From NCBI GenBank assembly GCA_000165345.1, contig CM000436.1, forward strand, positions 192,001-256,000: DNA of 64,000 bases, read 5' to 3'. Within the stretch, counting starts at the first letter, position 1, and every line of letters starts with the position of its first letter. Below are positions 1 through 5,099 of the stretch, piece by piece. The notes below the pieces were generated by a model. It ran no database searches and had not been told where the DNA came from. It was given only the letters and a program-made list of their open reading frames with translations. The position numbers were made by a program, and so were the translations under genes.

Positions 1-3000
1 GCTGAAATAATTATCTCTTTTTCTAATTCCAAATGAAATATTGTACTTGAACTTTTAAAATTAGCATTTTTTCCATCTCTATTTTGAATGAATAATTTAG
101 TCTTTTCTACCATATCTTCAAGTCTTTCAACCTTTAATTTCTGAAAAGAAATAAATTTTTTAACTTCTTCTATATTAATTAAAAAACAATCTTTTGGTAT
201 ATTTTTATCTTGTTGGAAAAAACTGAATAATAAGCTTTTTATATTTTCTTTAAAGTTTTTAAGATTTGGAATATGTAACCAAGGATACTTAAATTTGTTT
301 AATTCTTGGCATTTAACCAAATATGATTTTAATTTAAAAACCAAATTTCTTAATGTTTCAAATAGTAATTCATAATTAACAGAATTATGATCACTTTTAT
401 TATTATTATTAAATTTCAACATTTGAATTAGTAAATATTCAATTGTTGAAATTCTGGTATTTATTAAATATAAAAGATTTAAATCACATCCTGTTAAAAA
501 CTTGAAAGCTTTTTCTAATATTTCTGGTAACAATAAATTTGATAATTCTTTGATAAACATTTCTAAATAATTCATCAAATTATAATTCATTAATGTTTTC
601 AAATCCAATTTGTCCAATACATGTTGTTCAGGCCCTAATTCTGGCATTACTGTCAAAATTGGAAATTCAGCCTTTGTAGCTTCATCACCAGCTTCTAATT
701 TTACCTCTGCTTTTATTTCAGCTCCTGTTCCTGTTCCTGTTCCTGTTCCTGTTCCTGTTCCTGTTCCTGTTCCTGTTCCTGTTCCTGTTCCTGTTCCTGT
801 TCCTGTTCCTGTTCCTGTTCCTGTTCCTGTTCCTGTTCCTGTTCCTGTTCCTGTTCCTGTTCCTGTTCCTGTTCCTGTTCCTGTTCCTGTTCCTGTTCCT
901 GTTCCTGTTCCTTGTTCTGGTCCTGTTCCTGTTCCTTCTGCTTTTGTTCCCGTTTTTATTCCTGTTCCTGGTCCTTGTTCTGGTCCTGTTCCTGCTCCTG
1001 TTCCTATTCCTACTCCTGCTCCTGTTCCTGCTCCTGTTCCTGCTCCTGCTCCCATTCCTACCCCAAATCCTTCAAAATCAAACCTTTCATTCTCGTCAAC
1101 TGAGTCATTGATGTACATCCCAACGCTCATTTCTGTCCTTGAAATCAAATCTCCACTATCTAAATCAAATAATTGTGAATAATCTCCTGAACTAACAAGA
1201 TTATCAAAACCAAACAACTCTAAATTTGAAAGAAATCCATCTTCTAATGGATAACTTGGAAATTCAAATTCCATCAAAGTCGGATGAAATTCCCAACCTA
1301 CAACTCCAGTTGTTATTATCTCTTGCTTTTTATTTAATTGAGATTTTAATATATAAAAAATACCAAATTTAAAACAAAACTTTATTATACTTGAATGAAG
1401 ACTCAAAATTGATGATAAATTTTTTGCTTCTATTAATTCTTCATTTTTTAATCCTCTCTTTAAATTTTCTATCTCTTCAATCTTTTGAATTAATTCCTTA
1501 ATAAAACTTAATGTACAACTTTCTGGTTTAATTTTATCATTACTAGTAAATCTATGTAATAAATGACTTCCATCTATTGTTACATTTTCTTGAAATAATC
1601 CATAACCCCATCTTTCTTGCTTTAAAATATCATTAATACTTTTATTTAATATCAAATTCTCACCTTCTTTTTTAAATGGATCATATTTTTTTATTATACC
1701 TAATCCATTCTCACCTTCTACTCTTAATATACAAGCATATATTGCTTCAAAAAAATATTCTAAAGCTAAAGAATAACCAATCAAAGTTAAAAATTCTTTA
1801 TTATAATTATATTCTAAACTTGAATCTATACCATTCGAATATTTATTCAAAAAATTACTTAAAATCATATTAAATTCTTCTGATAATTTACCATATTTTA
1901 ATAATAAACTTAAATAATTTGTCTCCAAACATGAATTTATATGACCAAATAAATCAAAATTTGATGTTAATTTAAAGAAAACTGATGTTATTTCAATCTT
2001 ATTTAATAATAATCCTTTTTTTATACTTGCTGTAAAATATTGTGGAGAAGGTAATTTTAATATTTTTATCGATAATTCATTTTCATCATCTTTTTTTATT
2101 ATCTCTATCACATTTTCACATCTTCTTATAATATCTTCAATAATTAAAATTAATACAATCAATATATCTTTTAACCTATAATGTAATCTTTTTGTAATCA
2201 TTAATTCATTTTCATTCATCATTTCTTCCAATTTTATATTCTTATAACTTATCTCCTCATAATTATTATTATTATTATTAATACGTTCCTCTAATCTATC
2301 TTGAAGTATTTTTATTTCTTTTAATGATTTTTTAAAATCTATAATTTTCTTTACTGTACAATCCTTTAAACCACTCATATTTATTGAAAATCTTTTTAAT
2401 AAAGTATTTAATATAGCCATTTCAATTTTATTTGCTAAATTTAACAATAATATAATTTCTTCTGAAAATAAATTCTCTATTATTCCAGAAAATAATTCAC
2501 CTATTATCGTTTTATAATTATTTTTAGAAATTTCTTCATCTAAAAATTTATTTATATAAGGAAATTTAATTTTAATACAATTATTTAAAATAAATTGTAA
2601 TAATTCCATATAATACTTTTCTAGTAATATATTTCTTTTAACATTATCAGAATTACAAATTGAACAATTATGATTATTATTCATTGTTATTCCATATAAC
2701 AAAATGTTTCTTTTCTGAATAATTTTATCAATAGATTGATTTCCACTTTTACCATGTAAATGTTTCTTTAATTTAAGTTCTTTTTGATAAAAATTTAATA
2801 ATTCCATACTTTGTTGTTTTTCTTGAATAATTTTCATAATATTCTTAAAATTACAATCTAAAGTTGAATATATATATTTTTCACTTAATAATATCTGTAA
2901 ATTCTCAAATAGTTTTAAATCTGCTCTTAATTCAGAATTTATATCCATTTTTTTAATAATTTCTTTATTTAAATTAATTTTTTGTGTAACTTCTTCTTCA

Positions 3001-5099
3001 AATTGATAATATGTTAAACAAAAAGAAATTAAATCTAATGATATTTTTATCAAAGATTTGGCTGATATTATTTTTAATTTCCTTGCTTCATCCAAATTAG
3101 GATCTTCATACAAATTTTTATTATTCTCTTCTAATTCTTTAATTTGATTTATTCTTGAAATAAATTGAAATAATTCTGTAATAGTTTCAATATTACAATC
3201 TTTTGAATAAAAAATAAATGTAAATCCACCTATACTTTGTATTAATTGATACATATTTTGATAAACTTGTTTTTTTTGTAATTGATTTAAATCTTTATAT
3301 ATTCCCAATTTTTTGATTGATTTAGTAATATCATATGTATAACTACATTCTTTACTAAAAGAATGAATTTTTGCTTGAATTTCTAAACTTGATGGATCTT
3401 TTTTTAATAAATTATCACAATTATTCAATAAACTTATCAATAATTCAATAATTAGATTATAAGTTTTAATTTTTTCCATTAGAAAATATTTTTTTAATTC
3501 TATAATACATGTATTACGTGTACATGGTTTATTTAAATGATTATGACCATTACATTTCAAAGATTTCAATTTTAATTTATACTTTAAAATTTTATTATTA
3601 TATTCATTCTTTAAAGATACCCATTTTTGTAACTTTTTAATAGATAAACACTCTTTAATTTGAGTAAATCCTTGTAAACGAGTTAATAAATAAAGAAATA
3701 TTTTAGATCCATATCTTGAATTGATTGGGAATTTACTGTAATTTTGCACTAGAAATCGAGTTAAATCCAATAATGGACTAAATTTCTCAAATTTGCATTC
3801 ATTTAAATTAATTATTAACTTTTCTAATTTTCCTTTAATTTTTGGAGATACATGAAATATTTCTTCACAAAGTTCAAGTAATTTACTAAAATAACTGATT
3901 AAATCTTTTAATAGTAATAATAGAATTTCATATTCTTTTATTGCTTGTTTGCCTTTTTCTGTTTGAGTTGTTAAGAAAGTACTTTCATCAATTCGATAAC
4001 TTTCATTATTTCTATTTTGAGCACTTTGCAAAATTTTGATAATTTTTAATTTTACAACAAATAACTTATTCACCATCCCTAATTCACATTTCAATTCAAT
4101 CAATTCACTTGCTGCAAAAACTTTCAATAGTTTTTCGAAAAATAATTGAACTGTTTCTCTTTGTCCCATTGCTAATTTTTTTATCTCCTCCATTTTAGCA
4201 TCCAACAACTTCAATTTCTCATTAACCATGTTTGTCTCTGAATTGTTTAATTCTGAAGGATTAGGATTAGGATTAGGATTAGGATTAGGATTAGGAGTAG
4301 GAGTAGGAGTAGGTGTATGAGTAGGAGTAGGAGCAGGTATATGAGTAGGAGTTGCTTTATTGCTTATCGTGGGAGTAATAGTAATATTACTTGTTGTTGT
4401 GGAAATAGTAGTAGTAGTAGTAGTTTTATGAGTAGAAGTACTGGTAATACAAGTAGTAGTAACAGTACTGGTACTAGTACTCGTACCAGTACTCGTACCA
4501 GTACTATAATTTATTTTATCTGCACCTGTATCCTCATTTGCCTCTGTTTCCTCTTGTTCATTACTGCTAGAAACTAATTTACTCTTTCTAAATTTGGCCT
4601 TAATAAGCTTATTTTTGTCATTATTTAATTTAAGTCTCAATTTCCTTAATTTAGATTCCACACTATTTATTTCTTTTTGAATACTTTCACAGTTTTGACA
4701 TTTCTTGCTCAAATGTTTTTGTTTTTTCTTATTCTTTTTATTCTTGTCATTACATTTTTCTAATTCTAATCCACTCTTAAGAACTTTCAATTTTGCCTCT
4801 AATTCGTTTATTTCTTTTCTTAATTCACTAATTTGTTGTAATAATCTTGAAATTAATGAATTTAATTGATCTAATGACATTCTTTTAATATTAATGTTTG
4901 TTAAACTTAACTTTGAATAATTTTTTTTTCTTTTCAAACCTGGTATTTCTAAAAAAGAAATAAAAACTGCTTGTGAATTTATTTTTGTTATTTCATCATT
5001 TAAATGGTTACCAATTTCATTATTTAATGATATAAATAATGTAATATAGGTAACAATCAATAAAGTTAAACAGGTAATTAAAACTCTTAAAAAAATCAT
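1..5099 (-). CDS. Large repeat-containing protein with an N-terminal signal peptide or signal anchor; 3' end lies beyond the window. Carries (Gly-Thr)n, (Pro-Asn)/(Pro-Thr) and Thr/Ser-rich low-complexity tracts plus K/E/L-rich coiled-coil-like regions.
   Basis: I read the minus strand from the ATG (reverse complement of 5097-5099) to position 1 as one uninterrupted frame, about 1699 codons. A TAA lies 57 nt upstream in frame. The N-terminus reads [25 protein letters not shown], which is hydrophobic. I checked frame continuity at 1021-1200 (...[60 protein letters not shown]...) and at 4541-4600. The ORF track omits it because it has no stop inside the window. The plus-strand (PV)n ORF at 610..1182 is its antisense mirror. 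Confidence 0.65.
721..1060. repeat. Hexanucleotide microsatellite: (CCTGTT) x31 perfect units at 726-911, followed by degenerate CCTGCT/CCTGTT units. It encodes (Gly-Thr)n / (Gly-Ala) on the minus-strand gene.
   Basis: Direct reading of the sequence. The perfect tandem run spans 186 bp and the decayed repeat continues to about 1060. Confidence 0.95.
4262..4520. repeat. Compound coding repeat: (GGATTA)5 (GGAGTA)n followed by GTA/AGT-rich triplet repeats. On the minus-strand gene it encodes (Pro-Asn)n, (Pro-Thr)n and Thr/Ser runs, which look mucin-like.
   Basis: Direct reading. The minus-frame translation is ...[81 protein letters not shown]... Confidence 0.85.

What the first reader, a model, noticed from the sequence alone, without database searches (positions are those of the whole stretch)
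1..5099. Unlisted >5-kb minus-strand ORF: secreted/membrane repeat protein with Gly-Thr, Pro-Thr/Pro-Asn and Thr/Ser tracts
The six-frame track shows only short plus-strand dipeptide-repeat ORFs in the first 5 kb. Read on the minus strand, however, there is one uninterrupted frame from the ATG at 5099 to the window edge, about 1700 codons, and it continues beyond position 1. It is absent from the track only because it has no in-window stop.

The product begins with a 25-residue hydrophobic segment, which is a signal peptide or signal anchor. It has a Thr/Ser/Pro-rich mucin-like block (aa ~195-280) and coiled-coil-like K/E/L-rich regions. Near the window edge it has a Gly-Thr dipeptide array of about 110 residues. 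The (PV)n ORF at 610..1182 on the plus strand is the antisense reading of this array and should not be annotated.

In an apicomplexan parasite, large secreted Thr-rich repeat proteins are candidate O-glycosylated surface or secretory antigens.
Basis: seen in the sequence. Interest (0 to 1): 0.55.

Follow-up and report, generated by a model that had tools for sequence, protein, structure and literature searches.

The report
Known Cryptosporidium parvum antigen gene cgd8_700
The long minus-strand reading frame is real: it is the first ~1,700 codons of the already annotated Cryptosporidium parvum gene cgd8_700 (CpMuc8/Muc20), whose product is very probably secreted, is mostly helical with short sugar-acceptor-like repeat linkers, and is already listed as an antigen associated with protection in children.

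Summary
Window 5099→1 (minus strand) is open for 1,699 codons (chance ~1e-81); the other five frames carry 68–217 stops. The described features are all present: an N-terminal hydrophobic segment, a coiled coil, a Thr/Ser/Pro block and a Gly-Thr array. The plus-strand (PV)n ORF is the antisense reading of that array.

The window is C. parvum chromosome 8 (PKG 100% identical to cgd8_750). The ORF is the ortholog of C. hominis CHUDEA8_700, so it is cgd8_700, about 1,913 aa in full; roughly 214 aa lie beyond the window edge. The literature calls it a "possible mucin" (CpMuc8/Muc20), fast-evolving, and an antigen associated with protection from reinfection. The gene is already known.

Three points go beyond the annotation:
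- The mucin-like tract is only 5% of the protein and is not conserved in C. canis or C. felis.
- The conserved parts are all-helical modules with no known fold. Cysteine is by far their best-conserved residue, which suggests disulfide bonds and a secretory route.
- C. canis and C. felis have one ~2,900-aa gene at this locus, and C. ubiquitum fragments look like the same long form. The C. parvum group has cgd8_700 plus a neighbouring paralog with complementary domain content.

The parts
1..5099 (-). 5' 1,699 codons of the cgd8_700 (CpMuc8/Muc20) coding sequence. The stop codon lies about 214 codons beyond window position 1.
   Evidence: Open frame. 88.5% identical to C. hominis CUV07614.1 (1,823 aa) and syntenic downstream of the myosin gene. 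Published cgd8_700/CHUDEA8_700 divergence values match mine.
5022..5099 (-). N-terminal hydrophobic segment (aa 1-26, [26 protein letters not shown]): a signal peptide or signal anchor.
   Evidence: It is the only strong hydrophobic segment in the protein. An equivalent segment is present in the C. hominis, C. meleagridis, C. canis and C. felis orthologs and in paralog gene B.
4575..4904 (-). Coiled-coil region (aa 66-175) containing a Cys triad, C-x17-C-x2-C, at aa 116-137 (window 4689-4754).
   Evidence: Heptad scan. A C...CxxC pattern was found in C. parvum, C. hominis, C. canis, C. felis and gene B, but not in the C. meleagridis N-terminal fragment.
4254..4514 (-). Thr/Ser-rich block followed by PT/PN dipeptide repeats (aa 196-282): the mucin-like, putatively O-glycosylated linker.
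   Evidence: 68% S+T+P. Tandem 6-nt repeats. 22 residues shorter in C. hominis. No such Thr-rich tract in C. canis, and C. felis has Pro-rich linkers instead.
1080..4229 (-). Conserved non-repeat core (aa 291-1340): predicted all alpha-helical, with 16 cysteines invariant across the genus-level orthologs.
   Evidence: An exhaustive HMMER search found only Cryptosporidium relatives. The AlphaFold model shows about 40 helices at mean pLDDT 60. 16 of 21 Cys are conserved against 16% of all residues, p = 1.3e-9. No Pfam, PDB-sequence or PDB-fold match.
714..1067 (-). Gly-Thr-rich linker array (aa 1345-1462), including a perfect (GGAACA)x31 microsatellite at window 726-911.
   Evidence: Tandem Repeats Finder reports period 6 and 55.5 copies. 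All 31 units use the identical codons GGA ACA. The array is shorter and degenerate (ET/GT/KT) in C. hominis, AE/TG in C. meleagridis, Pro-rich in C. felis and about 30 aa in C. canis.
3..665 (-). First ~220 residues of the conserved C-terminal helical domain (aa 1479-1699; cut by the window edge). This domain is shared with the neighbouring paralog.
   Evidence: Alignment A2 shows invariant GC...LINxRIST and SYLxxCxxLNKYxxPW motifs. 31% identity to the C-domain of gene B, E = 1e-13. The model has pLDDT 67 and is all-helical.
610..1182 (+). Spurious (PV)n ORF: the antisense reading of the Gly-Thr array. Should not be annotated.
   Evidence: Translation. It overlaps the conserved, syntenic minus-strand gene.
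4317..4577 (+). Spurious 86-aa ORF: the antisense reading of the Thr/Ser block.
   Evidence: Translation and coordinates correspond to target aa 175-261.

Best explanation
Window 1-5099 (minus strand) is the 5' 89% of Cryptosporidium parvum cgd8_700, called CpMuc8 or Muc20 in the literature. It is a single-exon gene for a protein of about 1,913 aa, found only in part of the genus Cryptosporidium.

Proposed mechanism:
1. The N-terminal hydrophobic segment takes the protein into the ER.
2. The helical modules fold there with disulfide bonds. These modules are a coiled coil carrying a Cys triad, a ~1,050-aa core with 16 invariant cysteines, a ~280-aa C-domain and a terminal 'LYSLYLSL' motif.
3. 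The low-complexity tracts between the modules (Thr/Ser + PT/PN, and Gly-Thr) act as extended, probably O-GalNAc-glycosylated spacers. They grow and shrink by replication slippage.
4. The protein is then secreted or displayed where the host immune system sees it.

Shown here or in cited papers: gene identity, coding status, modular architecture, cysteine conservation, rapid evolution, taxonomic restriction and seroreactivity. Inferred: ER entry, disulfide bonding, O-glycosylation, the final location and the molecular function. The conserved helical modules are the functional part; the 'mucin' tract is a lineage-specific linker.
For: Identity:
- The PKG ORF is 100% identical to C. parvum cgd8_750.
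- The target is 88.5% identical to C. hominis CUV07614.1 (1,823 aa), which I equate with CHUDEA8_700 from the genome record (LN877954.1), its position in the gene order and the matching divergence values. It sits in the same gene order: prefoldin, myosin, target.
- C. meleagridis orthologs carry the tags cmbei_800695 and cmbei_800700.
- My dS 0.069, dN 0.031 and omega 0.44 are close to the published cgd8_700/CHUDEA8_700 values of dS 0.095, dN 0.037 and omega 0.39, with identity 0.869 (PMC4637869).

Coding status: open-frame chance about 1e-81 and third-position GC of 12%. All indels are whole codons within the repeats.

Secretory route:
- The hydrophobic N-terminus is conserved in all family members.
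- Cysteine is the most conserved residue in the core: 16 of 21 against 16% overall, p = 1.3e-9.
- Orthologs are annotated as secreted or mucin.

Linker role of the repeats: they sit at module boundaries, and their composition differs by lineage (Thr-rich, Gly-Thr, Pro-rich or absent). The perfect (GGAACA)x31 run shows recent slippage.

Restriction: an exhaustive search of 1.84 billion representatives gave 5 hits, all Cryptosporidium. C. xiaoi has no room for the gene at the syntenic site, and C. andersoni has no similarity there. This agrees with 'Muc20 lost in C. bovis and C. ryanae' (PMC7371110).
Against: - No signal-peptide predictor could be run. The C. parvum h-region is about 20 residues long with no obvious small-residue cleavage site, so an uncleaved signal anchor is equally possible.
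- No localisation, glycosylation or expression data for this protein were found.
- The array antigens were cell-free translated segments, and association with protection is not proof of surface exposure.
- Conserved cysteines could bind metal rather than form disulfides.
- Structure models are low-confidence (pLDDT 60 and 67), and no fold relative was found. The molecular activity of the helical modules is therefore unknown.
- I did not see a C. parvum database entry for this exact protein. Its assignment to locus tag cgd8_700 rests on orthology, synteny and matching published divergence values.
Confidence: 0.8

Rival explanations
1. It is a classical mucin. The O-glycosylated Thr/Ser/Pro and Gly-Thr repeats are the functional part, mediating glycan-dependent attachment to host cells as proposed for gp900, gp40/15 and Muc4/5, and the rest of the protein is scaffold.
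For: - A Thr/Ser/Pro block with 68% S+T+P, including runs of up to six Thr.
- Orthologs are annotated 'possible mucin' or 'mucin', and the literature counts the gene among the C. parvum mucins.
- The C. ubiquitum fragment begins with PGTSDSTEI repeats.
Against: - The PTS block is 87 aa, or 5% of the in-window protein. Outside the two tracts S+T+P is 12%.
- The C. canis ortholog has no 60-aa window reaching 45% S+T+P, and C. felis has Pro-rich rather than Thr-rich linkers.
- Constraint falls on the helical modules and their cysteines. In the Gly-Thr region dN/dS is 3.7, although that figure rests on only 65 aligned codons of a repeat and is unreliable.
Confidence: 0.12
2. It is not secreted or surface-exposed. 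The N-terminal segment is a membrane anchor holding a large helical protein on an internal organelle or the pellicle, and the antibody association is incidental, arising from release of parasite debris.
For: - The hydrophobic segment is about 20-25 residues long, without an obvious cleavage motif in C. parvum.
- The body is K/E/L/I/N-rich and helical like many cytoskeletal or tether proteins.
- No C-terminal transmembrane or GPI signal is evident in the ortholog sequence.
- No localisation data were found.
Against: - C. canis has a typical short h-region followed by small residues (...GLLGVG|YD).
- The extreme, even-numbered cysteine conservation (16) in a domain without CxxC-type metal motifs favours an oxidising compartment.
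- Fast evolution and lineage-specific loss are typical of host-exposed proteins.
- The protein is seroreactive in children.
Confidence: 0.07
3. The long frame is not a gene. It is a chance or relict ORF, or the plus-strand (PV)n ORF is the real gene.
For: Nothing beyond the fact that the plus-strand ORFs exist.
Against: - Chance probability about 1e-81 and a codon-position GC signature.
- Conserved, syntenic orthologs in at least six Cryptosporidium species, with whole-codon indels only against the C. hominis-type ortholog and dN/dS below 1 in all non-repeat segments.
- The plus-strand ORFs exist only over the repeats.
Confidence: 0.01

Closest known systems
C. hominis CHUDEA8_700 (CUV07614.1 / PPS95475.1, 1,823 aa), C. 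meleagridis CmeUKMEL1_17530 (also cmbei_800695 + cmbei_800700) and a C. tyzzeri fragment: direct orthologs of cgd8_700
   Same: Same gene order, same start codon and same module order. Identity is 88.5% for C. hominis and 75% for C. meleagridis.
   Different: Repeat tracts differ in length and composition. The C. parvum PT/PN tract is 22 aa longer, and its Gly-Thr array is 65 aa longer and pure (GT)31, against ET/GT/KT in C. hominis and AE/TG in C. meleagridis.
The long proteins of C. canis (KAJ1611953.1, 2,810 aa) and C. felis (KAF7456826.1, 2,957 aa) at the same locus
   Same: Signal sequence, coiled coil with Cys triad, core (28-31% identity over about 1,000 aa) and C-domain (29% identity). 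Same position directly downstream of the myosin.
   Different: They carry an extra ~750-aa 'X' domain between the coiled coil and the core, and a ~500-aa longer tail with several LY..YLSL-like motifs and a CxxCxxC end module. In C. hominis, and by inference C. parvum, those parts are found in the neighbouring gene instead. They have no Thr-rich mucin tract.
cgd8_680_690 / cgd8_660_670 ('large low complexity protein with signal peptide'; one copy in C. hominis, gene B, 1,987 aa)
   Same: Adjacent, same strand. Shares the signal sequence, the coiled coil with C...CxxC, the C-domain (31% identity, E = 1e-13) and the LY..YLSL motif. Named as a small multigene family in PMC4407392 and PMC6532270.
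   Different: Gene B has the X domain and the long tail but lacks the ~1,000-aa core; a PG / PAVPSK repeat linker sits where the core would be. cgd8_700 has the core but lacks X and most of the tail. The papers I read relate 660/670/680/690 to each other and do not mention cgd8_700.
Cryptosporidium mucin-type glycoproteins gp900 (cgd7_4020), gp40/15 (gp60) and Muc1-7
   Same: Signal sequence, Thr/Ser-rich tracts, rapid evolution and repeat-length polymorphism, and antibody responses associated with protection.
   Different: No sequence similarity was detected by exhaustive search. Here the PTS tract is about 5% of the protein and is not conserved. From my own knowledge (not tested here), in gp900 and gp40 the Thr/Ser domains are a large or defining part and their O-glycosylation has been shown experimentally.

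Membership tests
cgd8_700 orthogroup (CpMuc8 / Muc20) | Located on C. parvum chromosome 8, immediately downstream of the myosin gene and a few genes from PKG cgd8_750, on the same strand as the myosin | tested here: met
   PKG is 100% identical to C. parvum EAK89306.1. The gene order prefoldin, myosin, target is the same as in C. hominis UdeA01 LN877954.1. C. meleagridis locus tags cmbei_800695/700 for the target and accession numbering up to PKG are consistent.
cgd8_700 orthogroup (CpMuc8 / Muc20) | High full-length identity to CHUDEA8_700, with the published divergence (identity 0.869, dN/dS 0.39) | tested here: met
   88.5% identity over 1,697 aa to CUV07614.1. dS 0.069, dN 0.031 and omega 0.44 against the published 0.095, 0.037 and 0.39.
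cgd8_700 orthogroup (CpMuc8 / Muc20) | Exact match to the C. parvum reference protein carrying that locus tag | not testable with these tools
   No C. parvum entry for this protein was returned by the protein searches. CryptoDB is not available here.
Mucin-type O-glycoproteins | N-terminal signal sequence for the secretory pathway | tested here: inconclusive
   A conserved hydrophobic N-terminus is present. No predictor was available, so cleavage versus anchor is undecided.
Mucin-type O-glycoproteins | A Pro/Thr/Ser-rich (PTS) tandem-repeat domain | tested here: met
   aa 196-282 has 68% S+T+P and 6-nt tandem repeats.
Mucin-type O-glycoproteins | The PTS domain makes up a major part of the protein and is a conserved feature of the family | tested here: not met
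   The block is 87 aa, or 5% of the in-window protein, and the rest has 12% S+T+P. There is no comparable tract in C. canis, and C. felis has Pro-rich linkers.
Mucin-type O-glycoproteins | Dense O-GalNAc glycosylation of the PTS domain | not testable with these tools
   Requires lectin blotting or glycoproteomics.
Chromosome-8 tandem family (cgd8_660_670 / cgd8_680_690 / cgd8_700) | Shared signal sequence, coiled coil with C...CxxC, helical C-domain and LY..YLSL motif; adjacent genes on the same strand | tested here: met
   The family HMM hits gene B at E = 3e-198. C-domain 31% identity, E = 1e-13. Motif comparison. Adjacency in L001 and L008.
Any curated protein domain family (Pfam) or solved structure | Significant profile or fold match | tested here: not met

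The most novel reading that the evidence does not exclude
cgd8_700 and its neighbour (cgd8_680_690 / 660_670) are the two halves of a tandem duplication of one ancestral secreted protein of about 2,900 aa. That protein is still intact in C. canis and C. felis, and probably in C. ubiquitum.

After the duplication the copies lost complementary domains. cgd8_700 kept the Cys-rich core and lost the X domain and most of the tail. The neighbour kept X and the tail and lost the core. In each copy a fresh low-complexity tract sits where the lost domain would be: the Thr-rich 'mucin' block in cgd8_700, and PG/PAVPSK repeats in the neighbour.

Both copies retain the coiled coil and the C-domain, so they may still assemble into one complex. 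On this reading the 'mucin' label describes a deletion scar rather than the function.
Probability: 0.5. Interest if true: 0.45.

Novelty: already known. Interest (0 to 1): 0.25.

Why it matters
[quoted passage not shown] The finding itself therefore adds nothing new.

The analysis does offer some practical points to anyone working on CpMuc8/Muc20 as a vaccine or typing target:
- The conserved, probably disulfide-bonded helical modules are the parts shared across human-infecting species. The Thr-rich tract that gives the protein its name is not.
- The perfect (GGAACA)x31 array is a likely hypervariable marker and a likely cause of assembly errors.
- The relationship to the neighbouring paralog suggests the two products should be studied together.

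Tried and rejected
- Pfam on the target, its orthologs and the paralog gave only sub-threshold hits: DUF4407, SlyX, AATF-Che1 and CFAP143.
- The word-index search with the whole protein was swamped by low-complexity candidates and returned one hit. 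The exhaustive HMMER search on the non-repeat core solved this.
- An AlphaFold model of the core (pLDDT 60, pTM 0.37) searched with Foldseek against the PDB gave a best E of 4.1. The afdb50 library was unavailable.
- PDB sequence-profile searches gave only weak hits in low-complexity positions.
- I searched for a diverged relative downstream of the myosin in C. xiaoi and C. andersoni with a family HMM over six-frame translations. The best hit was E = 0.088, so I treat the gene as absent there.
- Literature and supplement searches for localisation or expression data on cgd8_700 found nothing.
- The alternative that the long C. canis/C. felis form is a derived fusion of two genes is not excluded, but I judged it less parsimonious. 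The C. ubiquitum fragment also joins the end of the core to a gene-B-like tail, and the required recombination would be complex.

Full report
**1. The observation**

Translating the reverse complement of window 1-5099 gives 1,699 codons without a stop. The frame opens at a stop 19 codons upstream of the ATG at 5099. At the local base composition (A 44%, T 32%, G 15%, C 9% on the coding strand) a stop is expected about every 9.6 codons. The chance of 1,699 open codons is therefore about 1e-81, and the other five frames of the same stretch carry 68-217 stops. GC is 31%, 29% and 12% at codon positions 1, 2 and 3, and codon usage correlates with the adjacent myosin gene (r = 0.88).

The ORF list omits this frame only because it does not list ORFs that run off the window.
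- A single strong hydrophobic segment at aa 1-26.
- Heptad-like coiled coil at aa 66-175.
- A Thr/Ser block followed by PT/PN dipeptides at aa 196-282, 68% S+T+P.
- A Gly-Thr-rich array at aa 1345-1462.

The plus-strand ORFs 610-1182, reading (PV)n, and 4317-4577 are antisense readings of the two repeat tracts.

**2. What and where it is**

The window is a compact, apparently intron-poor eukaryotic locus. It contains a myosin, prefoldin, a PKG-type kinase, Glu/Gln-tRNA synthetase, a DEAD helicase, an ApiAP2 protein, a proteasomal ATPase, COPI-alpha and other genes. The PKG ORF is 100% identical to C. parvum cgd8_750 (EAK89306.1). It is 99.9% identical to Cryptosporidium sp. 43IA8, 99.3% to C. 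tyzzeri, 98.9% to C. hominis and 96.7% to C. meleagridis. The window is therefore C. parvum chromosome 8.

The target's only close relatives form one 90% cluster that includes C. hominis CUV07614.1 and PPS95475.1, both 1,823 aa. The C. hominis gene lies in the same order, prefoldin then myosin then target. C. meleagridis orthologs carry the tags cmbei_800695 and cmbei_800700.

A published table lists cgd8_700 against CHUDEA8_700 with identity 0.869, dS 0.095, dN 0.037 and dN/dS 0.39 (PMC4637869). I obtained 88.5% identity, dS 0.069, dN 0.031 and dN/dS 0.44 for the in-window part. All indels against the C. hominis-type ortholog are whole codons inside repeat tracts. The ORF is cgd8_700. By comparison with C. 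hominis, about 214 residues lie beyond window position 1, giving a full length of about 1,913 aa.

**3. What is already known**

- Source names for orthologs read 'putative secreted protein, signal peptide with several threonines, possible mucin' (KAF7456826.1, on the same C. felis contig as the myosin) and 'mucin' (C. ubiquitum).
- cgd8_700 is listed among the fast-evolving mucins that differ between C. parvum and C. hominis (PMC4637869).
- As 'Muc20' it is reported lost in C. bovis and C. ryanae (PMC7371110; name equated in PMC12407990).
[quoted passage not shown] It was arrayed as three overlapping segments because the ORF exceeds 3 kb (PMC10425216).

The gene, its putative secreted/mucin nature and its antigenicity are therefore all in the literature. 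I found no localisation, glycosylation or functional study.

**4. Anatomy of the family**

An exhaustive HMMER search with the non-repeat core (aa 291-1340) against 1.84 billion representatives gave five hits, all Cryptosporidium: C. meleagridis, C. canis, C. felis and two C. ubiquitum fragments. Using the myosin as a syntenic anchor, the downstream site looks as follows:
- C. xiaoi: a convergent gene begins 52 bp after the myosin.
- C. andersoni: the 4.8 kb after the myosin shows no similarity to a family HMM (best E = 0.088).

The gene is restricted to the parvum/ubiquitum/canis/felis part of the genus.

Conserved across these orthologs are the N-terminal hydrophobic segment, a coiled coil, the ~1,050-aa core, a ~280-aa C-domain and a C-terminal 'LYSLYLSL...PL.L..LI' motif. 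A C...CxxC Cys triad in the coiled coil was found in C. parvum, C. hominis, C. canis, C. felis and gene B, but my pattern search did not find it in the C. meleagridis N-terminal fragment.

The low-complexity tracts lie between these modules and differ by lineage:
- Between the coiled coil and the core: Thr/Ser + PT/PN in the parvum group.
- Between the core and the C-domain: Gly-Thr (C. parvum), ET/GT/KT (C. hominis), AE/TG (C. meleagridis), Pro-rich (C. felis), about 30 aa (C. canis).
- C. canis has no 60-aa window reaching 45% S+T+P.

In C. parvum the array contains 31 identical GGAACA units, which implies recent slippage. The two tracts make up 5% and 7% of the in-window protein, and the remainder has 12% S+T+P. 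The 'mucin' label therefore rests on a small, non-conserved tract.

**5. The conserved modules**

The most telling signal is cysteine. In the core, 16 of 21 Cys are identical in both C. canis and C. felis, against 16% of all aligned residues (Fisher p = 1.3e-9). The C-domain has further invariant Cys. An even number of dispersed invariant cysteines behind a conserved signal sequence is what disulfide-bonded secretory proteins show. This supports a secretory or extracellular location independently of the annotation. It is an inference, not a demonstration.

**6. An unexpected relationship with the neighbouring gene**

A family HMM hit the ORF immediately downstream of the target in the C. hominis-type contig at E = 3e-198. 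The complete C. hominis gene ('gene B', 1,987 aa; L008 16497-22460) has this architecture:
- Its own signal sequence.
- A coiled coil with the Cys triad.
- A ~750-aa 'X' domain, 39% identical to C. canis aa 58-791.
- A PG/PAVPSK repeat linker.
- A C-domain: 31% identical to the target's (E = 1e-13) and 33% to that of C. canis.
- Several LY..YLSL-like motifs.
- A CxxCxxC end module shared with C. canis and C. ubiquitum.

This architecture is established. Gene B corresponds to the cgd8_660_670 / cgd8_680_690 pair described as paralogous 'large low complexity proteins', with one copy in C. hominis (PMC4407392, PMC6532270).

C. canis and C. felis have a single uninterrupted gene of 2,810 and 2,957 codons between the myosin and, in C. 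felis, RPL23. In C. hominis the order is myosin, target, gene B, RPL23. The long form contains X + core + C-domain + tail. The target is the long form without X and most of the tail. Gene B is the long form without the core. In each, a low-complexity tract sits where the missing domain would be.

A C. ubiquitum fragment joins the end of the core to a gene-B-like tail. On a C-domain tree, gene B groups with C. ubiquitum (83% bootstrap) while the target sits on a long branch. The most economical reading is a tandem duplication in the parvum-group ancestor followed by complementary domain loss, with the target evolving faster in the shared modules. This is inferred from few taxa and fragmentary assemblies, and the reverse scenario (a fusion in C. 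canis and C. felis) is not excluded. Gene B lies outside the window.

**7. Verdict**

What it describes is the already annotated and already studied C. parvum gene cgd8_700 (CpMuc8/Muc20). The best-supported mechanism is a modular, disulfide-bonded, helical secretory protein. Its repeat tracts are slippage-prone, probably O-glycosylated spacers, and the product is visible to host antibodies. The points added here are the weakness of the 'mucin' label, the cysteine-rich conserved modules and the complementary relationship with the neighbouring paralog. These are of moderate interest to Cryptosporidium specialists and do not change the classification: already known.

Noticed in passing
window 726-911 (minus-strand coding): A perfect 31-copy GGAACA hexanucleotide microsatellite, with every Gly as GGA and every Thr as ACA. 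The corresponding arrays in C. hominis and C. meleagridis are shorter and degenerate. It is a likely hypervariable VNTR and a likely cause of assembly gaps: the C. tyzzeri assembly has an N-run at the equivalent place.
   Followed up: partly
beyond window position 1; L008 16497-22460 (C. hominis UdeA01) and L001 16484-19066: The gene immediately downstream of cgd8_700 (ortholog of cgd8_660_670 / 680_690, 1,987 aa) is a paralog with complementary domain content. Together, the two genes cover the domains of the single ~2,900-aa gene found at this locus in C. canis and C. felis.
   Followed up: yes
L006 16237-25481 (C. tyzzeri PYHZ01000008.1): The cgd8_700 ortholog is called as five fragments (65, 169, 455, 50 and 216 aa). 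tblastn shows the match switching between all three frames, with N-runs in between. This is either an assembly-quality problem in a repeat-rich gene or real pseudogenisation.
   Followed up: partly
L004 15143-19970 (C. andersoni LRBS01000045.1): The ~4.8 kb between the myosin and Ctf4 holds only small same-strand gene calls (324 and 284 aa) with no detectable similarity to the cgd8_700 family. What occupies the syntenic slot in gastric species is unknown.
   Followed up: partly
window 4317-4577 (+): An 86-aa plus-strand ORF that is simply the antisense reading of the Thr/Ser block. It is a second spurious ORF besides the (PV)n one.
   Followed up: yes
window 1-5500: Outside the repeat tracts the gene is markedly more AT-rich (16-22% GC) than the window as a whole (29.9%) and than the neighbouring myosin (26-28%).
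   Followed up: no
window 19343-20620 (-), 21207-24794 (+), 38664-39776 (+), 42582-43922 (-): Four further long ORFs (425, 1,195, 370 and 446 aa) have no Pfam match at E <= 0.001.
   Followed up: no
window 11382-14830: The 3.4 kb between the myosin and prefoldin has no ORF of 150 aa or more on the expected strand. In related species this interval holds a MOLO1-domain gene (gene span longer than its product, suggesting an intron) and a small 112-114-aa gene. The plus-strand ORF 13662-14126 may be spurious.
   Followed up: no
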